Sequence record: PP180003
Direction: 5' to 3' (one strand)
From: Escherichia phage mEp515
Length of the DNA stretch: 53,673 bases
Shown here: positions 4,632 to 53,396 of the stretch, one piece after another
Numbering within the stretch: position 1 is the stretch's first letter
Layout: each line of letters opens with the position of its first letter
Notes under the pieces: model-generated
Seen by the model: the letters and a program-made list of their open reading frames with translations, nothing else
Told to the model about the DNA's origin: nothing
Databases searched by the model: none
Made by a program: the position numbers and the translations under genes

Positions 4632-6047
4632 TTAAAAAGATGCGTTATTCTGGTTGTTTCGTTGGTTAAATCTGCCTGTGCGGTGATTCATAGACTGAAT
4701 ACACGCAGCAGCCGCGCGTGCCTGGTCGCATGGTAAAATGTTGCCGTTATCATCAAACCGCTGGTAAACAGTGCCAGATTTACCATGACGGTTTTTCGAT
4801 ACAATGATTTCCATATATTCGCGGGCTACAGACTGCTCATCGTAATATCCATCGCGGTAAACCATGATGATCCTGTCGGCATCTTGTTCAAGGTTCCCGG
4901 AATCGCGCAGATCTGAATTGTTAGGACGCTTGTTCGGTCGCTCCTCAACGCGGCGGGACAACTGCGCCAGCGCTAACACTGGAACGCGCAATTCTTTCGC
5001 CATCATCTTCAACGACCATGACAATTGCCCAACAGCGAGATCATGACGTTCGGCCTTAGCCAGTTTCATTAACCCGATGTAGTCAATCATTACCATACCC
5101 AGGTTTGGATGTTCCTGTTTCATCCGTTCCGTTGTGGCGCGTATTTCCTCAACCGTTAACTGCGACGCGTCAACGATCCACACATCAAGATTAGCAAGTG
5201 CGCTCATACCCTTGCCGACATGCGCCCACCCCTCATCATCAAGTTTTACCGGATTACGCAGGCAGTCTGTTGATAAATTACCAGCGCCAGCTATAGCGCG
5301 TTCAGTCATCTGATCGAGTGACATTTCAAGCGTGAAGAACAAAACGCCAACCCGCTGATCTTTACTGCCAGGGTAAGGGCGCTCAGCGGCAGCGCGGGCA
5401 ATTGTCAGCGCCAACGCAGATTTACCAGACCCAGGGCGTCCAGCTAAAAGCACCAAATCAGTAGCGTTAATGCCTCCCAACATCTCATCGAGTGGATCTA
5501 TCCCTGTTTTGATGTTGTCAGAATTAACACCGCATTCCATGCGCTTGCTTAAAACGTCCGTATATTCCTGTACCGCATCACGCAACAGAACAGGAATGAT
5601 CTTATCTTTCGTTACCTTTAATTTTGAATACCGGGAATCAAAATCTTTCATCGTCTCTTTGACGACCTCAAGCGTCCCCGTCTCCAGTTTGTAGCGCATA
5701 TCGTCGATGAGTTCCAACATCTGCCGCCGCTGGTGCTCTTCACGTAGTAGCTGTGCGTATCCCTTCAGGTTGGCAGCAGACGGGCACGATCTCGCCGTTT
5801 GCATTAGCGGTACAAAGTTTTCGTTGCCAATCTCATCGCCAACCAATAACGCGTCAATAAGATTCCTGTTTCTGGCTTGCGCCCTGATAATTTCAAACGC
5901 ACGTTTATACAGCGGAATCGTGAACACTTCAGGATCAAGAGTGGCGAGAACATCTTGCGCGTTAGGAGTAAGGCCGCCCAACAGCAGCCCACCGATAACT
6001 GACGCCTCACGTTCCTGCCGTAGTGAGTTTATTTGCTCAGTTACCAT
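4632..6047 (-). CDS. Replicative DNA helicase, DnaB family
   Basis: 471 aa; Walker A GRPGSGKSALALTIA, Walker B region VMIDYIGLM, DnaB-like N-terminal domain; strong GGAGGT SD. Confidence 0.85.
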   Translation of the reverse strand: MVTEQINSLRQEREASVIGGLLLGGLTPNAQDVLATLDPEVFTIPLYKRAFEIIRAQARNRNLIDALLVGDEIGNENFVPLMQTARSCPSAANLKGYAQLLREEHQRRQMLELIDDMRYKLETGTLEVVKETMKDFDSRYSKLKVTKDKIIPVLLRDAVQEYTDVLSKRMECGVNSDNIKTGIDPLDEMLGGINATDLVLLAGRPGSGKSALALTIARAAAERPYPGSKDQRVGVLFFTLEMSLDQMTERAIAGAGNLSTDCLRNPVKLDDEGWAHVGKGMSALANLDVWIVDASQLTVEEIRATTERMKQEHPNLGMVMIDYIGLMKLAKAERHDLAVGQLSWSLKMMAKELRVPVLALAQLSRRVEERPNKRPNNSDLRDSGNLEQDADRIIMVYRDGYYDEQSVAREYMEIIVSKNRHGKSGTVYQRFDDNGNILPCDQARAAAACIQSMNHRTGRFNQRNNQNNASF

Positions 6048-45977: not shown

Positions 45978-46544
45978 GTGAACTGGTCTGAATTGTTTGT
46001 TTATGATGAAGATTCTCCTTCATGTTTAAGGTGGAAAGTCACCGCTAACAGCAGAACGGCGAGGACTGGCGATGCGGCAGGAAAAATAGTAGCGGCAAAA
46101 AGCGGCAATAAGTACTGGAAAATCACATGGAAGGGCCGTCGCTATTATGCTCACCGGATTGTTTACGAATTATGCAGTGGCAGAAAATTAAAACGCAGTG
46201 AGATCATCGATCACATTGATGGTAATGGGCTTAATAATAAATTCAATAACATACGCGTAACAGATAAAAAAGGTAACGCCAGAAATATGACCATAGGTCG
46301 CGCGACAAGGGAGAGCGGATTGCCATTTGGGATATGTTGGCACGCAGAAGGGAGATCTATTAGAGCACGTATCACCGCTGATAACGACAAAAGAGTTAGT
46401 AAATCATTTAGCGTTATAGCGTGCGGTGGACTTGAAATGGCTATTAATGCCGCCGTCGCGTGGCGGTCATTCATGATTGAAGAGCTAAATAAAGCTGGCG
46501 CAGGATACACGAAATTACACGAAACAGGGGGTTTATATGTCTAG
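45978..46544 (+). CDS. HNH homing endonuclease with AP2-like domain (copy 4 of 4)
   Basis: AHRIVYELCSGRKLKRSEIIDHIDGNGLNNKFNNIRV; GTG start with GGGGG SD; inserted between tail genes I and J. Confidence 0.75.
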   Translation: MNWSELFVYDEDSPSCLRWKVTANSRTARTGDAAGKIVAAKSGNKYWKITWKGRRYYAHRIVYELCSGRKLKRSEIIDHIDGNGLNNKFNNIRVTDKKGNARNMTIGRATRESGLPFGICWHAEGRSIRARITADNDKRVSKSFSVIACGGLEMAINAAVAWRSFMIEELNKAGAGYTKLHETGGLYV

Positions 46545-49500
46545 TGGCGGCGGTAAAGCAAAAACGCCAACTTTGCTTAATGATAATTTGTTTCATAAAC
46601 AATTTTATCGGGTTTTAGATATTCTAAGTGAAGGACCAATTTTTGGAGTAGTTAACCAAACAGCGCCATTAAACAGCGTAATGCTTAATGACACGCCTAT
46701 CACTGACGCAAGCGGAAACACATCAGTCCCTGGCGTTAGCTTAGCGTGGCGTAATGGTACGGCTGACCAGTCACCAATCAACGGCTTCAACGCTATTGAG
46801 TCAACCGTTATTGTCAACGCAAAAGTAACTCACGACACACCAATAATCAGGACCATTTCAGATCCCAACGTTAACCGCGTAAGGCTGAATCTTGGCGTTG
46901 ACTCTTTGGTAAGGTCAGATGACAAGGGCAATCAATACAATACATCCGTTATGTTGATGGTTGATGTCAAACCTTCATCGTCATCAACGTGGTCACTGGT
47001 TAAAGATATTACTATTGGCCCAGGCAAACAAAGCGGTGAGTATCTAGAAGCCCACATTATCAACGCGCCGGATGAAAAACCGTTTGATATTCGCGTTCGT
47101 CGCGTAACGCCAGACAGCACGGGAGATCTTCTTCACAATGATACCAGGTGGAGCAGTTACAGCGAGATAATCGATGATAATTTGTCTTATCCCCATACCG
47201 CTGTTGCTGGCGCGGTAATTGACCACGATCAGTATACTGATACGCCTACCCGCACCTATCATCTGCGTGGGCTGATTGTTGATGTTCCTGATAACTACGA
47301 CCCGGAAACGCGCACGTATTCAGGATTATGGCTTGGTGGCTTTAAAAAGGCGTATACCAATAACCCTGCATGGCTTTTCCGGTATCTGGTTAAAAATGAA
47401 CGTTTCGGGCTTGCCCGTCATGCTGGTTACATTGATGTTGACGACGGCGCATTATATACGCTTTCTCAATACTGCGACCAGTTGGTTAGCGACGGATACG
47501 GCGGCTTTGAACCTCGCATGACGCTTAATGCTTACATCACGGAGCAAATGAGCGCACGCGACTTACTTGATAACATTGCAGGCATGTTCCGTGGTATCGC
47601 GTTATGGGACGGGCAACGCCTTACCGTGATGATTGATGCACCACAAGATCCGATCGCCACCATTACAAATGCAAACGTCGTTGATGGCGCGTTTACTCGT
47701 TCAAGTATTGCCCGCGCAGAATCTTACAACGCCGTGATTGTGTCATGGACTGACCCAGAAAACGGCTGGGAGCAATCAAAAGAATACGTGGCAGATGATG
47801 AATTGATCGCCCGCGACGGTTATAACGAAACAACGCTAGAGGCGTTCGGTTGCACGTCACGCGGGCAAGCGTACCGCGCTGGCAAATGGCTGATAGAAAC
47901 GGCAAAACGCGAGCCATCAAAATTCACGTTTAAAATGGCCCGTGACGCAATTCACTTCACCCCCGGGGATATTATCGAGATACTCGACAATAACCGCGCT
48001 GGCGCTCGTTTAGGCGGCCGCATCGTGGCGAACAGTGGGAAGGTGATAACGGTAGACAAGGTTGATTCTGAATATATCGCGGCTGGTGACACTATCAGTT
48101 TACTTGATAGTGATGGCAAGTTTAAAAAACACCAGATCACCGGAGTTAACGGAAACAACATCACCCTTGCAACCGCCCCCGCATGGATTCGTAACGGGAC
48201 CGTATTCGCTGTGTCAACTGAAGCGGCAAAACCTGTTCTGTGTCGAATTATCAGCGTAGCAGAAACAGAAAATAACAGCGTGTACACCATCGAGGCAGCA
48301 CAACATGACCCACACAAACAGGCTGTAGTTGATGAAGGCGCAATCTTCGAGGTAAACAACGACACGCTTAATCACTTCCGCGTGCCGAACATTGAAAATC
48401 TGAAGGTGTTAAACGTTGGTTCTGAAACTGTTCAATGTCGCGCTACATGGGAAACACAGACGACAACGCATCGCCTGACCTTTGAAATACGCGTATATAA
48501 CGCCGAAGGCCGCGTGGTGGCAGCTTATGAAACAACGAATTACCGCTATGATTTTTATGGCCTCGATGCTGGCAGCTACACACTTGGTATTCGCGGTCGT
48601 AATGACACTGGCATGAAGGGGGCGGAAAGTATTGTTGACCTGGTTATTGGCGCGCCAGCGGCCCCAATTGGAGTTAATTGGGTTCCCGGCGTTTTCCAGG
48701 CAACAGTATACCCGATCAGCAAAACAACACTGACAACTGATACAGCATACGAGTTCTATTTCTCAGGTGAAAATCAGATCACTGACCCATCAAAAGTAAC
48801 AACTTTGGCGCAGTTTACCGGGCGCGGCTATCAGTGGACTTTTGGCGGAATGAACACGGGCCATACCTATTACGTTTATGTCCGCACACGTAACGCTTTT
48901 GGTGTGTCAGATTTCGTTGAGTCATCAGGAAAACCAACTGAAAACTTCGATGAAATTAGCGACTACGTCACCAAAGACGTGATTAACTCAGAACAGTTTA
49001 AAGGGATGATTAGCGACATTAAAGATCTTGGCGACCGCGCCGACCTTATCGAAAGCGCTACAAATGACCTTAAAACTGCTACCGACAACCTCAAAACTGC
49101 AACTGATAACCTGACAAACATCACTGACGATTTAATGGTTGACACTGACAACCTGACAAACATCACTGACGAATTGAGGACTGATACGGACGGCTTAATC
49201 ACAGAAACAGGGGCCATAAAAGCTGATACGGACACACTGAAAAAACAAACGGAAGATCTTTATAAAAAGGTTGGGGAAAACGCCGATGATATTGGACAGC
49301 ATGAGGCAAGAATAGATTCACTGGAGGTATCTAGCGAAAAAGTTGGCAGTGAACTTGCGCAAGCAAAAGCAAGCCTGCAAAACGCGTCATTGGCGCTTAT
49401 CAATAACTCACTTGCACAGACTAACACTCGCGTAACTCTTACCGCTCAGTATAAGAAAGGCAGGACAGAGACGAAGGCTGAAATTGACCGTATTGACAAC

Positions 49501-50718
49501 GTTATTGCTGAAGAGAAAAAGGCAACGGCTGAATCACTGGAAACCATCACGGCAGAAATGAACACGATGGATTCTAACCTTAAAGGTCAGATCTCAAGCG
49601 TGGAACGCGCAGTGGCTGACGAGGCCAGCGCACGCGCAGAAGCCATTAACGGTGTGAACGCATCAATAAGCAATCTAGACAAGAAAACAGACGCCAGCAT
49701 CAATAGACTTGATCAAGCTATTGCAGACGAAACGAACGCCCGCACACAGGCAGTCAGTGACGTTAACGCGAGTATCTCATCGCTAGACAAGAAAACTGAC
49801 GCCAGCGTTAAACGCTTGGATCAAGCAATTGCAGACGAAACCAGTGCAAGAACTGAAGCTATCAGCGGCGTGAACGCATCAATTTCCACTCTTGATAGCA
49901 AGGTAACAAGCAATGTAACGCGCATAGATAAGGCTATTGCAGACGAAACGAAGGCACGCACTGACGCGATAAGTAGCCTTAATTCATCGCTTACCAGTAC
50001 GATTAATTCGAAAGTGTCTGAAGTATCAACGGCACTTTCTACGCATGAAGCATCAAGCGCTGAAAAATTTAGCCAGATCTCTGCGTCTTTCGAATCTGTA
50101 AACTCAAGTATTACAGAATGGTCACAATCTATGGCAACGGCTGACGAGGCATTGTCAACCAAAATTGATCAGTTAACAGTAACCGTTAACGGTAACAAAA
50201 CGGCGATCGAGACGACATCGAATGCGCTAACCGATTTCAAGGGTAACGTTGATGCGTCATATTCAATCAAGCTCGCCACCGATAACAACGGCATGAAGTA
50301 CGCGACAGGTATGTCGCTTGGCCTGACTGGTAACGGCACAAACTTTCAATCGCAGTGTATTTTCCTCGTTGACCGCTTCGTGTTAATGACCTCAGCAAAC
50401 GGCACATATACAACACCTTTCTATGTCACCAATGGTGCGATGTATGTGAAAGAAGCGTTTATTAAAGACGGATCGATCGATACTGCAAAAATAGCGCAGC
50501 AAATCCAGTCAACTGTATTTGTTCAAGACTCAAAAGGTTGGATGATTAACAAAGATGGATGGGCGCAATTCAACGAAGTTACTGTAAGGGGTAACGTCAT
50601 TGTTAAAGGCAATCAAAATTTCGATGTACGCAATAGTGACGGACGGGTAATTATTAACAATAATGGCATTACAGTAAATCTTCCTAGTGGTGGTAAAATT
50701 ATTATCGGTGTTTGGTAA
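46537..50718 (+). CDS. Host specificity / central tail fibre protein J (lambda gpJ-like)
   Basis: 1393 aa; conserved gpJ N-terminal two-thirds; C-terminal region with tandem coiled-coil repeats and a distinct distal domain. Confidence 0.9.
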   Translation: MSSGGGKAKTPTLLNDNLFHKQFYRVLDILSEGPIFGVVNQTAPLNSVMLNDTPITDASGNTSVPGVSLAWRNGTADQSPINGFNAIESTVIVNAKVTHDTPIIRTISDPNVNRVRLNLGVDSLVRSDDKGNQYNTSVMLMVDVKPSSSSTWSLVKDITIGPGKQSGEYLEAHIINAPDEKPFDIRVRRVTPDSTGDLLHNDTRWSSYSEIIDDNLSYPHTAVAGAVIDHDQYTDTPTRTYHLRGLIVDVPDNYDPETRTYSGLWLGGFKKAYTNNPAWLFRYLVKNERFGLARHAGYIDVDDGALYTLSQYCDQLVSDGYGGFEPRMTLNAYITEQMSARDLLDNIAGMFRGIALWDGQRLTVMIDAPQDPIATITNANVVDGAFTRSSIARAESYNAVIVSWTDPENGWEQSKEYVADDELIARDGYNETTLEAFGCTSRGQAYRAGKWLIETAKREPSKFTFKMARDAIHFTPGDIIEILDNNRAGARLGGRIVANSGKVITVDKVDSEYIAAGDTISLLDSDGKFKKHQITGVNGNNITLATAPAWIRNGTVFAVSTEAAKPVLCRIISVAETENNSVYTIEAAQHDPHKQAVVDEGAIFEVNNDTLNHFRVPNIENLKVLNVGSETVQCRATWETQTTTHRLTFEIRVYNAEGRVVAAYETTNYRYDFYGLDAGSYTLGIRGRNDTGMKGAESIVDLVIGAPAAPIGVNWVPGVFQATVYPISKTTLTTDTAYEFYFSGENQITDPSKVTTLAQFTGRGYQWTFGGMNTGHTYYVYVRTRNAFGVSDFVESSGKPTENFDEISDYVTKDVINSEQFKGMISDIKDLGDRADLIESATNDLKTATDNLKTATDNLTNITDDLMVDTDNLTNITDELRTDTDGLITETGAIKADTDTLKKQTEDLYKKVGENADDIGQHEARIDSLEVSSEKVGSELAQAKASLQNASLALINNSLAQTNTRVTLTAQYKKGRTETKAEIDRIDNVIAEEKKATAESLETITAEMNTMDSNLKGQISSVERAVADEASARAEAINGVNASISNLDKKTDASINRLDQAIADETNARTQAVSDVNASISSLDKKTDASVKRLDQAIADETSARTEAISGVNASISTLDSKVTSNVTRIDKAIADETKARTDAISSLNSSLTSTINSKVSEVSTALSTHEASSAEKFSQISASFESVNSSITEWSQSMATADEALSTKIDQLTVTVNGNKTAIETTSNALTDFKGNVDASYSIKLATDNNGMKYATGMSLGLTGNGTNFQSQCIFLVDRFVLMTSANGTYTTPFYVTNGAMYVKEAFIKDGSIDTAKIAQQIQSTVFVQDSKGWMINKDGWAQFNEVTVRGNVIVKGNQNFDVRNSDGRVIINNNGITVNLPSGGKIIIGVW
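49654..49977 (+). repeat. Three in-frame 108-bp tandem repeats within J (36-aa units VNASIS.LDKKTDAS..RLDQAIADET.ART.A)
   Basis: Repeat units begin at 49654, 49762 and 49870; shorter DNLTNITD repeats upstream around 49100-49170. Confidence 0.55.
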
Positions 50719-50758
50719 CCACTGTTGCCCCGCCAAATGGTTGGGGCAACTAATTTTA

Positions 50759-51703
50759 TTAATAAATTACTGGCAAATAAGGAAGATTCATACCTATACA
50801 GAAATCCGGCCTGTTACCTATTTCATACCTGACAATCCTTGATCCTGTTCCGCTTTTCACCTGCCCGTTGTACATCATAATGCCTTTGTATCTTAGTTCC
50901 TTGTATGCTGATATAGCTCTAGTATTAAAGCCGCATCTCAATATTGGGAAGAACGCGTCACCTATTGTCTGGTAACTATTCGATAACGCTATAAATCCCT
51001 TAACAACCAATGGCCTTTGTTTTGTTGAAAACACGCATTGATTATTTTTATTAATGATGGTTATTCCGTCGCCAGGTGATGGCGGTGATTTGCTAAAAAT
51101 AGCCAAATTCATCGTTACCGATCCATATGTGTCACCAGTTGCAGAAGTGTTTGTGTTTGTACAGATCAATTTATTGTTTCCGTCAAACTCAACTGAAACA
51201 CCGCTATTGCTCCAGTTACCGAAAGGAACACCGGCAACTGGCATAGTGTAAGAACCATTAAAGCTAACACTCCCAACCCATAAACATGACATCAATGTAT
51301 CGTTAGTCGTTATCGATGCAAAATCTGTGCTATCTGCAACTAATATACCCTCACCAGTAGACGCCTTTGCTATCTCAAACACGCTACCGCTAAAATTAGT
51401 GATCCTATCAGAATATGCGTTCTCACCACTAATTGAAATCCTTGCCGTGCCACCAGAAGCACTAAAGCCTGATATAAAATATGTTTCAACACCCCTGTCA
51501 AGCTCAAACGCGTAAGCGCCTACCTTTGGGATTAGAAACTTATCGCCGCCAGTTAAATCCTTTATGGAAAAACTTTGCGAAAACCCAGCATTTTGAATAT
51601 TGAAATCTCCAGCGTGTGAGAACGCACGCAACCCGCTTGTTATTTCCATTGCAGGGCGTCCGTCATTCAGCCCAATATATATACCCGCCCCCATTAGTAC
51701 CAC
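50759..51703 (-). CDS. Hypothetical beta-rich protein (314 aa), opposite strand between J and side tail fibre
   Basis: Ser/Thr/Gly/Asn-rich; no signal peptide recognised; start overlaps upstream lipoprotein gene. Confidence 0.5.
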   Translation of the reverse strand: MVLMGAGIYIGLNDGRPAMEITSGLRAFSHAGDFNIQNAGFSQSFSIKDLTGGDKFLIPKVGAYAFELDRGVETYFISGFSASGGTARISISGENAYSDRITNFSGSVFEIAKASTGEGILVADSTDFASITTNDTLMSCLWVGSVSFNGSYTMPVAGVPFGNWSNSGVSVEFDGNNKLICTNTNTSATGDTYGSVTMNLAIFSKSPPSPGDGITIINKNNQCVFSTKQRPLVVKGFIALSNSYQTIGDAFFPILRCGFNTRAISAYKELRYKGIMMYNGQVKSGTGSRIVRYEIGNRPDFCIGMNLPYLPVIY

Positions 51704-51912
51704 TCCTTACTTCCGCAATCTCTAGTCTTGCCACTATGACCATCAGTGCCATCATAAACGCGACAGATCTCACCGGACGGAACCTTAGCCCCGTCAACCC
51801 ATCTTTCATAGCAGACACCGTATGCGCTAGTTGCACAATGGCCGTTGTGTCGATTAGTGTCAGCGCAACCAACCAGAATAGCCGCAACAGCGATAATTGT
51901 TACCATTTTCAT
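51694..51912 (-). CDS. Small Cys-rich lipoprotein (candidate Llp/Cor-like superinfection-exclusion lipoprotein)
   Basis: 72 aa from MKMVTIIAVAAILVGC (lipobox LVGC); six further Cys; GGGGTG SD; adjacent to receptor-binding genes. Confidence 0.5.
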   Translation of the reverse strand: MKMVTIIAVAAILVGCADTNRHNGHCATSAYGVCYERWVDGAKVPSGEICRVYDGTDGHSGKTRDCGSKEWY

Positions 51913-52046
51913 TAGTACACCCCACTCAGATTGTGTGTATTTGTTGCTTTGTTTATTATAATATACATTTTGTATAAGCATAAAATGCAACATAGATCAC
52001 AAAATGGTAGAATTATTCCGTTAATTAACATAATGGAGTCATTGCG

Positions 52047-53396
52047 ATGATTTACACAACTGGAACAATTGCCATCAATGGCAACACAGTTACAGGCACG
52101 GGTACAAACTTTTCCGCGCCGCTTTCTCTCATTCGTGTAGGTTGCACGCTCATTACCATCGGCAATCCGGTGCAGATCTTTACCATCACAGAAATTAAAA
52201 GCGGTACTGAACTGTCAGTAACGCCAGCGGCTAACCCTGCGATCCCCGCCGGAACAAAATTTAGCATTCTGCTTTCTGACTCGATCTCAGTAGATGGTCT
52301 TGCTCAGGACGTAGCTGAAACGCTGCGTTACTACCAGGGTAAGGAAACTGAAATTGCAGAAGCAATTGAATTTTTCCATGAATTTGATTTCAATGCACTT
52401 ACAACGCTGGCTAACCAGGTTCACACTGATTCAGCGCAAGTAAGCGCAGATAAAGCGATAGTTCAGCAATATAAAACAGATTCCGAATCAGCCAAATCAG
52501 CAGCAGAAGCTGCAAAAGGTCAGGCGGTGTTAGCTCAAACCGCCGCAGAGACAGCTAATACCAACGCGCAAGCCGCCAGCACTGCAGCGCAGGGATTTTG
52601 CGATCGGGCCGAAGAATGGGCGCAAAGCGTAAACCCCGACAACCTGCTAACTAAAGCCGGCAACCTGGCAGGGTTGACAGATAAATCGGCGGCGAGGTCC
52701 AATCTTGGGGTTGGAGATAATAGTTTAGTTAAGTTAGGTGCGCTGCACCTGAATGGTGGTGAGTCATTAGTGTTAAGGGGCGCAGAGTCTAACGAGTTAA
52801 GGTTGTCAAACTCTTTATACGGGGCTGATAGCTGGGTTGGGATGACGATGCATAAGTGGTACGAGGATTGGACGCGGGCTGGCTTGGTAAGGGGAGGTGG
52901 TACCAAATTATCAGACTACCGCATCCATGTGTGGAAAGATGGTATATCTGATGCTTTATTCCGATTTTTGCCCGACCAAAGGCTTATTAGCGGCAACAGT
53001 GACAACCCGGCGGTTAACGAGTTCCAGAAAGCGCCGCTATCGGACCGCGACCATAAAAAAGAAATCCAATACACGGACGGCGAGGAAAGCTACAACCGCG
53101 TTCGCCAATGGCTTCCGGTAATGTTTAAGTATAAAGAGTCGGATGTACAGCGATACGGCCTTATCGCGCAGGACCTGGTAAGGATTGACCCGGAATACGT
53201 GCATTTGCTGCCGGGCTACGCCATCTATGAGGACGTCAAGGGGGTGGACGAGGAAGGGAACGAGGTAGTAGTAGACCGGAAGGAGATCGGGTATACAGAC
53301 GATGTGCTGTCTCTAGACAGTAATGTGCTGTTGATGGATCTGTGTGCCGCCTTCGTTCATCTGTTGCATAAAGTGGAGAAGCTGGAAGGTAAGTAA
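52047..53396 (+). CDS. Side tail fibre protein with probable C-terminal intramolecular chaperone domain
   Basis: 449 aa; N-terminus MIYTTGTIAINGNTVTGTGTNF typical of stf-family fibres; C-terminal segment consistent with self-cleaving chaperone domain. Confidence 0.75.
   Translation: MIYTTGTIAINGNTVTGTGTNFSAPLSLIRVGCTLITIGNPVQIFTITEIKSGTELSVTPAANPAIPAGTKFSILLSDSISVDGLAQDVAETLRYYQGKETEIAEAIEFFHEFDFNALTTLANQVHTDSAQVSADKAIVQQYKTDSESAKSAAEAAKGQAVLAQTAAETANTNAQAASTAAQGFCDRAEEWAQSVNPDNLLTKAGNLAGLTDKSAARSNLGVGDNSLVKLGALHLNGGESLVLRGAESNELRLSNSLYGADSWVGMTMHKWYEDWTRAGLVRGGGTKLSDYRIHVWKDGISDALFRFLPDQRLISGNSDNPAVNEFQKAPLSDRDHKKEIQYTDGEESYNRVRQWLPVMFKYKESDVQRYGLIAQDLVRIDPEYVHLLPGYAIYEDVKGVDEEGNEVVVDRKEIGYTDDVLSLDSNVLLMDLCAAFVHLLHKVEKLEGK

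What the first reader, a model, noticed from the sequence alone, without database searches (positions are those of the whole stretch)
50759..51912. Cys-rich lipoprotein plus 314-aa protein encoded antisense between J and side tail fibre
The 72-aa lipoprotein (lipobox LVGC, six further Cys) sits next to receptor-binding genes on the opposite strand, mirroring T5 Llp and phi80/N15 Cor lipoproteins that block the phage's own receptor. The overlapping 314-aa Ser/Thr/Gly-rich protein is unassigned and could be a cell-surface partner.
Basis: partly seen in the sequence, partly recalled or inferred. Interest (0 to 1): 0.55.

Follow-up and report, generated by a model that had tools for sequence, protein, structure and literature searches.

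The report
Phage receptor-binding protein with its exclusion lipoprotein
The two antisense genes are a known two-part host-recognition module, a tail-tip receptor-binding protein plus the small lipoprotein that blocks the same receptor in infected cells; its closest solved relatives bind the essential LPS exporter LptDE, although this phage group was published as OmpA-dependent.

Summary
Both genes are real. The window is an mEp021-type temperate coliphage, probably mEp515.

- **Lipoprotein (72 aa).** It is identical to Lpp021/Gp81. A 2025 paper already showed that Lpp021 excludes mEp021 and mEp515. It belongs to Pfam PF24052 and is about 54% identical to Rtp45, whose cryo-EM structure shows it plugging the periplasmic side of LptDE.
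- **Second gene.** It encodes 311 aa, not 314. It is not a host-surface partner. It belongs to DUF6453 and is 64% identical to the AugustePiccard/Rtp44-type receptor-binding protein (RBP). Its only significant structural match is the Oekolampad RBP solved on LptDE. GenBank labels it a virion structural protein.
- **Architecture.** The layout J → ← RBP ← lipoprotein recurs in lytic T1-like and Dhillonvirus phages and in E. coli prophages. The extreme C-terminus of J co-varies with this RBP family.

Neither Cor nor Llp is a homologue.

The one fresh point is a conflict. By homology the terminal receptor should be LptDE, which is essential and so absent from Keio screens. The published work names OmpA and credits J with receptor binding. 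This is a new member of a known kind, of moderate interest.

The parts
51694..51912 (-). Superinfection-exclusion lipoprotein gene (72 aa; identical to mEp021 Gp81/Lpp021), Rtp45 family
   Evidence: Pfam PF24052 scores E 5.6e-31. PDB chain 9rps_D (Rtp45 bound to LptDE) matches at E 1.6e-18, with about 54% identity to Rtp45 and 50% to the Bas01 exclusion protein. Exclusion of mEp021 and mEp515 is published.
51865..51912 (-). Lipoprotein signal peptide with lipobox LVGC. Cys16 is the lipidated residue, and Ala at +2 predicts sorting to the outer membrane.
   Evidence: Sequence MKMVTIIAVAAILVGC|AD. The hydrophobic maximum is at the N-terminus, Kyte-Doolittle 1.8. The outer-membrane sorting rule is established knowledge.
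50759..51694 (-). Receptor-binding protein gene (311 aa; identical to mEp021 gp80), DUF6453 / Rtp44 / RBP-Oekolampad family
   Evidence: Pfam DUF6453 scores E 1.6e-104. PDB chain 9rpt_C matches at E 8.8e-46. Identity is 63.7% to the Bas01 RBP and 36-43% to the Bas18, Bas25 and ACG-M12 RBPs. The AF2 model has pLDDT 86.5, and its only significant Foldseek PDB hit is 9rpt_C (E 1.9e-15, TM 0.80).
51703..51708 (-). Shine-Dalgarno sequence AAGGAG for the RBP gene. It lies inside the end of the lipoprotein gene, with a TAATG stop/start overlap, which implies translational coupling.
   Evidence: Read from the sequence. GenBank annotates an AGGAG ribosome-binding site here. The same 1-nt overlap occurs in Bas01, 2006V, ACG-M12 and two E. 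coli prophages.
50724..50750 (.). GC-rich hairpin between the convergent stop codons of J and the RBP gene; a likely terminator
   Evidence: Folding gives dG -19 kcal/mol with z -3.9 against shuffles. GenBank annotates it as terminator TERM_13. The simple terminator scan missed it.
50581..50715 (+). C-terminal tip of J (last 45 aa, ...NNNGITVNLPSGGKIIIGVW); the proposed docking site for the RBP
   Evidence: A tip HMM matches J in 56 of 58 IMG/VR loci that encode this RBP family. It also matches the two E. coli prophages (E 1e-23 to 1e-25). It does not match J of tunus, PTXU06 or phi80, which have other RBP loci, or J of mEp044, which uses LamB. tblastn hits reach the end of J only in phages that carry DUF6453.
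46537..50718 (+). Central tail fibre / tip attachment protein J (1393 aa), with a coiled-coil repeat region and a Phage_Tail_Tip domain
   Evidence: Pfam finds FNIII-A_GpJ, Phage-tail_3, Ig_J, Ig_J_second and Phage_Tail_Tip.
51955..51960 (-). Perfect TATAAT -10 hexamer 43 nt upstream of the lipoprotein ATG, with a poor -35; a candidate promoter for the two-gene operon
   Evidence: Found by a relaxed hexamer search. The stricter scan found no promoter here. This is weak evidence.
52047..53396 (+). Lateral/side tail fibre gene (449 aa) with a C-terminal S74 intramolecular chaperone. It is context for the module and a possible reader of OmpA.
   Evidence: Pfam Peptidase_S74 and PHROG tail fibre hits. 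Residues 183-449 are 70-85% identical to Dhillonvirus lateral fibres.

Best explanation
The locus is a two-gene host-recognition and self-protection operon of the Rtp44/Rtp45 (LptDE) type. It is carried here by a temperate mEp021-type siphophage.

**Gene 1, the lipoprotein (72 aa).** It is exported, lipidated at Cys16 and sorted to the inner leaflet of the outer membrane. It excludes the phage's own kind; this step is shown in the literature. By homology to Rtp45, it is inferred to bind the periplasmic face of LptD and push a beta-hairpin up the barrel lumen. That would displace extracellular loop 4, so the phage's receptor-binding protein can no longer bind. The effect protects infected or lysogenic cells from superinfection and keeps progeny from being wasted on cell debris.

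**Gene 2, the RBP (311 aa).** It is translationally coupled to gene 1 and is a virion protein. Its strongly conserved N-terminal ~25 residues are inferred to dock on the matching C-terminal tip of the J fibre. The rest of the protein is inferred to insert into the open LptDE translocon as the terminal, irreversible receptor.

**OmpA.** The published OmpA requirement is then an additional requirement, not the whole story. Two routes could supply it:
- a second contact made by the RBP itself;
- a contact made by the lateral fibre gp82.

**My probabilities**
- gp80 is the tail-tip RBP: about 0.95.
- gp81 acts by blocking that RBP's receptor: about 0.85.
- That receptor is LptDE: about 0.65-0.7.
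For: **Homology to solved structures**
- gp80 matches 9rpt_C, the Oekolampad RBP on LptDE, at E 8.8e-46. gp81 matches 9rps_D, Rtp45 on LptDE, at E 1.6e-18.
- The AF2 model of gp80 (pLDDT 86.5) has 9rpt_C as its only significant PDB fold match.

**Position within the family**
- gp80 is 64% identical to the Bas01 RBP. Experimentally LptD-dependent members differ from each other down to 35%.
- A 2026 preprint defines the LptD RBP family as >30% identity with >99% coverage.
- gp80 keeps 56 of 61 columns that are invariant in five reference RBPs. gp81 keeps 19 of 23 in the exclusion proteins, including the Cys30-Cys38 pair and the C-terminal GSKEW.

**Architecture and J-tip co-variation**
- The J → ← RBP ← lipoprotein layout is identical in Bas01, 2006V, Oekolampad, ACG-M12 and two E. 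coli prophages.
- In IMG/VR, 56 of 58 RBP loci have a J with the same tip type, and about 30 have the RBP gene directly downstream of J. Negative controls lack the tip.
- The first 20 residues of gp80 are 70-80% identical to all references, against 5-55% elsewhere for the distant ones.

**Published and annotation evidence**
- Lpp021 excludes mEp021 and mEp515.
- gp80 is labelled 'virion structural protein' in a record where that label matches the 16 mass-spectrometry-detected proteins.
- LamB-dependent mEp044 lacks the DUF6453 gene.
- The mechanism of Rtp45 and RBP-Oekolampad comes from PMC12685063.
Against: - The only receptor phenotype published for these phages is OmpA dependence: plating on the Keio ompA strain drops to about 1e2 PFU/ml. 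The authors assign binding to J.
- LptD was never tested for these phages.
- No other LptD-type siphophage is reported to need OmpA, so the combination has no exact precedent. Bas01 needs NupG plus LptD, through a J domain that this J does not obviously have.
- The RBP residues that contact the receptor could not be compared, because the interface list was not available and no multimer prediction was possible.
- Virion presence of gp80 is inferred from an annotation label. I could not read it from the paper's figure.
- Promoter evidence for the operon is weak.
Confidence: 0.68

Rival explanations
1. This is a receptor-switched member of the family. gp80 keeps the Rtp44 fold and J docking, but its distal surface now binds OmpA, and gp81 blocks OmpA rather than LptDE.
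For: - OmpA is the only receptor requirement demonstrated for mEp021 and mEp515.
- Within the mEp group, the OmpA-versus-LamB difference maps to the J terminus, gp80/gp81 and the fibre C-terminus.
- gp80 and gp81 form their own temperate-phage subclade: 81-97% identical among prophages but only 64% and 50% identical to the lytic members. That subclade has an extra conserved Cys pair in the lipoprotein.
Against: - All typed members of this RBP family, spanning 35-100% identity, use LptD. gp80 lies well inside that range.
- RBP-Oekolampad works by inserting deep into a 26-stranded barrel lumen, and Rtp45 works by reaching up that lumen. OmpA's 8-stranded barrel offers no such lumen (established knowledge).
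- The Rtp45 contact strand and hairpin are conserved in gp81.
Confidence: 0.15
2. J alone reads the receptor (OmpA), as published. On this reading gp80 is an accessory or assembly protein of the tail tip with no direct role in receptor binding.
For: The mEp021 paper attributes receptor recognition to the variable J C-terminus, by analogy with lambda.
Against: - After the Phage_Tail_Tip domain, this J has only about 36 residues. Those residues are the tip shared by every DUF6453-encoding phage regardless of host.
- The homologue of gp80 was solved bound to its receptor.
- LamB- and TolC-type phages that do use J directly lack the separate RBP gene.
Confidence: 0.07
3. The lipoprotein excludes at a post-adsorption step, blocking DNA entry, rather than by blocking the receptor.
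For: The published assay measured only plaque formation. The authors mention both possibilities.
Against: - Identity to Rtp45 is 54%, and Rtp45's receptor-blocking mechanism is seen by cryo-EM.
- Exclusion is specific to the two phages that share this RBP module; the LamB-dependent phages and lambda are not among those Lpp021 inhibited.
Confidence: 0.08

Closest known systems
Rtp44/Rtp45 of coliphage Rtp and the near-identical pair of AugustePiccard (Bas01)
   Same: Both proteins belong to the same Pfam families. The RBP is the same length (311 aa). The gene order, orientation and 1-nt overlap downstream of J are the same, and the J tip is of the same type. Identities are 64% for the RBP and 50-54% for the lipoprotein.
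   Different: - The host phage here is temperate and from an unrelated lineage (the mEp immunity-I group), not a lytic Drexlerviridae phage.
- The pair stands alone between two rightward late genes, rather than at the end of a leftward gene block.
- The lipoprotein has an extra Cys pair.
- The published receptor phenotype is OmpA, whereas Bas01 needs LptD plus NupG.
Oekolampad (Bas18) RBP and its exclusion lipoprotein; cryo-EM of LptDE-RBP (9rpt) and LptDE-Rtp45 (9rps), PMC12685063
   Same: The fold is the same (Foldseek E 1.9e-15, TM 0.80). The N-terminal segment is conserved, the lipoprotein disulfide pair and C-terminus are conserved, and the locus layout is the same.
   Different: Identity is only 36% for the RBP and 48% for the lipoprotein. 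The C-terminal ~30 residues of the RBP, which include Oekolampad's Gln299 contact, follow the Bas01 pattern instead.
T5 pb5 / Llp (FhuA)
   Same: The logic is the same. A separate monomeric RBP is hung on the central fibre, and a small periplasm-facing outer-membrane lipoprotein is encoded next to it, both on the strand opposite the tail genes. The lipoprotein blocks the RBP's receptor from inside (PMC9586334, as summarised).
   Different: There is no sequence or fold relationship. Llp acts by long-range allostery on a TonB-dependent transporter, whereas Rtp45-type proteins physically displace a loop.
Cor of phi80 / N15 / HK022 / T1
   Same: It is a small prophage-encoded lipoprotein in the tail-fibre region that excludes phages using the same receptor.
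   Different: It is not homologous: BLASTP gives E = 3.3, and the PHROG Cor hit covers only the signal peptide. Cor targets FhuA-dependent phages. In phi80 it is a separate moron downstream of gp22 and gp23 on the same strand as J.

Membership tests
DUF6453 / Rtp44 / RBP-Oekolampad receptor-binding proteins (LptD type) | Sequence membership: Pfam PF20051 above its cut-off, and >30% identity with about full coverage to typed LptD RBPs | tested here: met
   The Pfam score is 349.8 bits against a cut-off of 25. Full-length identity to Bas01, Bas18, Bas25 and ACG-M12 is 36-64%. The family rule is quoted from the preprint.
DUF6453 / Rtp44 / RBP-Oekolampad receptor-binding proteins (LptD type) | Fold of the solved RBP (9rpt chain C) | tested here: met
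   The AF2 model has pLDDT 86.5 and pTM 0.87. Foldseek gives E 1.9e-15, probability 1.00 and TM 0.80 normalised to the target, with no other hit below E 0.05.
DUF6453 / Rtp44 / RBP-Oekolampad receptor-binding proteins (LptD type) | Gene sits directly next to the 3' end of J, and J carries the matching C-terminal tip | tested here: met
   The two stop codons are 40 nt apart. The tip HMM is positive here and in 56 of 58 related loci, and negative in four controls.
DUF6453 / Rtp44 / RBP-Oekolampad receptor-binding proteins (LptD type) | Protein is part of the virion | tested here: inconclusive
   The GenBank product is 'virion structural protein'. Genes with structural products in that record (the same label is also given to the odd gp41) fit the paper's account of 16 mass-spectrometry-detected proteins, two of them upstream of the lysis genes. 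Figure 1D itself could not be read.
DUF6453 / Rtp44 / RBP-Oekolampad receptor-binding proteins (LptD type) | Binds LptDE, and infection is blocked by lptD loop mutations | not testable with these tools
   No experiment exists for mEp021 or mEp515. The published dependence is on OmpA. LptD is essential and so is absent from the Keio collection.
Rtp45-type superinfection-exclusion lipoproteins (Pfam PF24052) | Sequence membership | tested here: met
   The Pfam score is 106.8 bits against a cut-off of 27. The Rtp45 PDB chain matches at E 1.6e-18, with 54% identity.
Rtp45-type superinfection-exclusion lipoproteins (Pfam PF24052) | Lipobox with an outer-membrane sorting signal, the conserved disulfide pair (Rtp45 C30-C38), the hairpin segment and the C-terminal GSKEW | tested here: met
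   The lipobox is LVGC with Ala at +2. C26 and C34 align with Rtp45 C30 and C38. VP(S/A)GE and GSKEW are conserved.
Rtp45-type superinfection-exclusion lipoproteins (Pfam PF24052) | Excludes the cognate phage when expressed alone | not testable with these tools
Rtp45-type superinfection-exclusion lipoproteins (Pfam PF24052) | Binds the periplasmic face of LptDE(M) | not testable with these tools
   It is shown only for Rtp45.
Cor exclusion lipoproteins (phi80, N15, HK022, T1) | Sequence similarity of the mature protein to Cor | tested here: not met
   BLASTP against phi80 Cor gives E = 3.3. The PHROG Cor hit (E 0.009) covers residues 1-31 only, which is the signal peptide.
T5 Llp | Sequence similarity to Llp | tested here: not met
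   A PDB-wide phmmer search at E <= 1 returns only Rtp45. No other Pfam family hits.

The most novel reading that the evidence does not exclude
The Rtp44/Rtp45-type pair in mEp021-type temperate phages has switched receptor. The RBP would bind the small 8-stranded OmpA barrel and the lipoprotein would neutralise OmpA. That would show that a module built to invade the LptD lumen can be re-aimed at a completely different class of outer-membrane protein. A milder version is more likely, at about 0.5: these phages need both OmpA and LptDE, and their lysogens carry a lipoprotein lodged in the essential LPS translocon.
Probability: 0.15. Interest if true: 0.65.

Novelty: new member of a known kind. 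Interest (0 to 1): 0.4.

Why it matters
- **Correction to the published picture.** The published account of this phage group has J binding OmpA and Lpp021 acting by an unknown route. The homology found here points instead to a separate receptor-binding protein (gp80) and to the essential LptDE translocon as the likely terminal receptor. Keio-type knockout screens cannot see LptDE.
- **Host range of the module.** If confirmed, the LptDE-type module would extend from lytic T1-like and Dhillonvirus phages to widespread gut prophages.
- **Effect on lysogens.** Lysogens may then express a lipoprotein that sits inside the LPS exporter, which bears on outer-membrane physiology and on ideas for steering phage resistance.
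- **A second dual-requirement case.** It would be a second example, after Bas01 with NupG plus LptD, of a siphophage that needs two outer-membrane proteins.
- **What is not new.** The lipoprotein-next-to-RBP observation itself is textbook and already tested for this exact protein.

Tried and rejected
- **Cor or Llp homology:** rejected. BLASTP against phi80 Cor gives E = 3.3, the PHROG Cor hit covers only the signal peptide, and no PDB or Pfam hit points to either family.
- **'Membrane protein' (PHROG 1265 and several GenBank labels) and the FlgL-like note in GenBank:** rejected. There is no hydrophobic segment, and the fold matches only the Oekolampad RBP.
- **Known defence-system components:** no PADLOC hit. 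NCBIfam gave only a sub-threshold TraV signal-peptide match.
- **Strict promoter and terminator scan of 50400-52300:** it found nothing useful. A relaxed search gave only a TATAAT with a poor -35. The J/gp80 hairpin was confirmed by folding.
- **The 16 mass-spectrometry-identified proteins in the mEp021 paper's supplements:** not held as text.
- **mEp515 record (PP180003):** I tried to fetch it to identify the window exactly, but it is not in the collection.
- **Another lipoprotein next to the co-directional J-RBP loci in IMG/VR:** none found.
- **Papers linking temperate phages, OmpA and LptD:** none found.
- **Contact-residue comparison with the LptDE-RBP interface:** not possible. Only Gln299 is named in the text, and it lies in a loop where gp80 follows the Bas01 pattern.
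Full report
**What is there**

Window 50759-51912 holds two minus-strand genes. They lie between the central fibre gene J (46537-50718, +) and a 449-aa lateral fibre gene (52047-53396, +).

The upstream gene (51694-51912) encodes a 72-aa protein, MKMVTIIAVAAILVGC|AD.... It has a classical lipobox and five cysteines in all: C16, C26, C34, C50 and C66. That is four further Cys, not six.

Its TAA stop shares one base with the ATG of the next gene (TAATG). That ATG is preceded by AAGGAG at an 8-nt spacing. The second protein is therefore 311 aa (50759-51694), not 314. GenBank makes the same call, and all homologues start at the equivalent methionine.

A GC-rich hairpin at 50724-50750 separates the convergent stops of J and this gene (dG -19 kcal/mol, z -3.9). 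A perfect TATAAT lies 43 nt upstream of the lipoprotein start, but its -35 is poor. Promoter evidence is therefore weak.

**Identity of the window**

The region is 99.9% identical to Enterobacteria phage mEp021 (MH706966), and both proteins are 100% identical to gp80 and gp81. Other parts of the window are only 83-94% identical, and J is 1002 nt shorter in its coiled-coil repeat region. The window is therefore a sibling of mEp021, most likely mEp515. I could not fetch that record.

**What is already published**

Negrete-Mendez et al. 2025 (PMC11893012) cloned gp81 as Lpp021. Its expression excludes mEp021 and mEp515; the LamB-dependent mEp phages and lambda were not among the phages it inhibited. 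They also showed that these two phages plate very poorly on a Keio ompA strain. They attributed receptor recognition to the variable J C-terminus.

The paper never discusses gp80. In the GenBank record it is called 'virion structural protein'. That label is also given to the odd gp41 upstream of the lysis genes. The genes with structural products in the record fit the paper's account of 16 mass-spectrometry-detected proteins, two of them upstream of lysis. gp80 was therefore very probably detected in purified virions. This is an inference from the annotation, not something I could read directly.

**What the two proteins are**

The lipoprotein is Pfam PF24052 (E 5.6e-31), and the 311-aa protein is DUF6453 (E 1.6e-104).

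Against all PDB sequences, gp80 hits one thing: chain C of 9rpt, the receptor-binding protein of phage Oekolampad on LptDE (E 8.8e-46). gp81 also hits one thing: chain D of 9rps, the exclusion lipoprotein Rtp45 on LptDE (E 1.6e-18).

An AlphaFold2 model of gp80 (pLDDT 86.5, pTM 0.87) has 9rpt_C as its only significant structural match (E 1.9e-15, TM 0.80 normalised to the target).

| Comparison | Identity |
|---|---|
| gp80 vs AugustePiccard (Bas01) RBP | 63.7% |
| gp80 vs vB_EcoS-2006V RBP | 62.4% |
| gp80 vs ACG-M12 RBP | 43% |
| gp80 vs VogelGryff (Bas25) RBP | 40% |
| gp80 vs Oekolampad (Bas18) RBP | 36% |
| gp81 vs Rtp45 | about 54% |
| gp81 vs Bas01 exclusion protein | 50% |
| gp81 vs Oekolampad exclusion protein | 48% |

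The Bas01 RBP is said to be 96% identical to Rtp44. The reference RBPs, which are linked to LptD by resistance mutations or cryo-EM, are as little as 35% identical to one another. gp80 therefore sits well inside the family.

gp80 keeps 56 of the 61 columns that are invariant in the five references. gp81 keeps 19 of 23, including the Cys pair that forms the Rtp45 disulfide, the hairpin segment and the C-terminal GSKEW.

There is no meaningful similarity to phi80 Cor (E 3.3) or to T5 Llp. There is also no defence-system hit.

**Context elsewhere**

The same arrangement, J → ← RBP ← lipoprotein with a 1-nt overlap, is found in several places:
- Bas01, 2006V and ACG-M12;
- Oekolampad, where a 2-nt gap replaces the overlap;
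- E. coli prophages in strains WCHEC025970 and O157:H7 LSU61.

In IMG/VR, 58 loci encode a full relative of gp80, and 56 of them also encode a J whose last ~45 residues match a tip profile (...NGITVNLPxGGxVVVGxW). In 24 of the loci J is convergent with the RBP gene, 22 of them with a detected lipoprotein gene upstream of the RBP. In about 30 prophage-like contigs the RBP gene follows J directly on the same strand, with no lipoprotein.

J proteins of phages with other receptor-binding loci (tunus, PTXU06, phi80) do not match the tip profile. Neither does J of the LamB-dependent sibling mEp044, which also has no DUF6453 gene at all.

The N-terminal 20 residues of gp80 are 70-80% identical to every reference. 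The rest drops to 5-55% for the distant ones.

Together these results indicate that gp80 hangs on the J tip by its N-terminus. This is the arrangement proposed for these 'bona fide RBP loci' in the BASEL papers and in the 2026 receptor-prediction preprint.

**Mechanism**

Shown in the literature:
- Lpp021 excludes its own phage type.
- Rtp45 binds the periplasmic side of LptD between LptE and LptM. It sends a hairpin up the lumen and displaces extracellular loop 4 by up to 20 Å, which prevents RBP binding.
- The Oekolampad RBP inserts deeply into an open state of LptDE.

Inferred here: gp81 and gp80 do the same things.

The Ala at +2 of the mature lipoprotein predicts outer-membrane sorting (established rule), which fits a periplasm-facing partner of an outer-membrane protein. 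The translational coupling and the single hairpin suggest one small leftward operon.

**The unresolved conflict**

Homology says LptDE, and the published phenotype says OmpA. Several points bear on this:
- LptD is essential and could not have been found with Keio strains.
- No LptD-type siphophage in BASEL or in the 2026 RB-TnSeq screens was reported to need OmpA. A general indirect effect of ompA loss on such phages is therefore unlikely.
- Bas01 shows that a second outer-membrane protein (NupG) can be required together with LptD.
- In the mEp group, the OmpA-versus-LamB difference maps only to the J terminus, gp80/gp81 and the distal part of fibre gp82.

OmpA is therefore probably read either by gp80 itself or by the gp82 knob. 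I judge 'LptDE terminal receptor plus an extra OmpA requirement' the most likely reading (about 0.65). A true receptor switch to OmpA is possible (about 0.15). 'J alone binds OmpA' is unlikely.

**Verdict**

The lipoprotein interpretation is right and already proven for this exact protein. The 'cell-surface partner' idea is wrong, because that protein is the phage's own receptor-binding protein.

The module is a new, temperate-phage member of a family whose structure and mechanism were published in 2025. The only real news is the predicted LptDE involvement, which conflicts with or complements the published OmpA assignment and can be tested directly with existing lptD mutants.

Noticed in passing
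window 45978-46544 (+): An HNH endonuclease gene (Pfam HNH_3, PHROG 99) sits inside the tail operon between tail assembly gene I and J. It overlaps the J start by 8 nt, which makes it a likely homing-endonuclease insertion.
   Followed up: no
window ~49817-49983 (J coiled-coil repeat region): J here is 1393 aa, against 1727 aa in GenBank mEp021. The difference is a 1002-nt length polymorphism inside the tandem coiled-coil repeats. The rest of the J-to-end region is 99.3-99.6% identical, and other genome parts are only 83-94% identical, so the window is a sibling phage, probably mEp515.
   Followed up: partly
phage records phiEco32, SU10, NJ01, ES17, IMEP8 and others: Kuravirus-type podophages encode distant homologues of both proteins: 24-28% identity to gp80 and 38-40% to gp81. 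The two genes lie tens of kb apart. This hints that these podoviruses may also use and block LptDE.
   Followed up: no
IMG/VR loci L033-L057, L059-L061, L068, L069: About 30 prophage-like contigs of ~40 kb carry a DUF6453 gene (about 33% identical to gp80) immediately downstream of J on the same strand. They have no Rtp45-like lipoprotein and no other lipoprotein ORF nearby.
   Followed up: partly
window 51694-51912; L008 6525-6737; L009 4937-5152: The lipoproteins of the temperate-phage subclade (mEp-type, and E. coli strains WCHEC025970 and O157:H7 LSU61) share an extra Cys pair, C50 and C66. It is absent from Rtp45 and from the Bas01, 2006V, ACG-M12 and Bas18 proteins, so it may form a second disulfide bracing the hairpin.
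   Followed up: partly
L005 (VogelGryff/Bas25) 4876-5001; L028: The LptD-dependent Seuratvirus locus has the RBP gene but no annotated or detectable Rtp45-like lipoprotein upstream. The exclusion gene is therefore not an obligatory part of the module.
   Followed up: no
window 52047-53396 (+): The lateral fibre gp82 is a mosaic. Its N-terminal ~25-180 residues resemble T1-like fibres. Residues 183-449, the knob plus the S74 chaperone, are 70-85% identical to lateral fibres of lytic Dhillonviruses (JL1, mckay). The whole host-recognition end of this temperate phage therefore looks exchanged with lytic small siphophages.
   Followed up: partly
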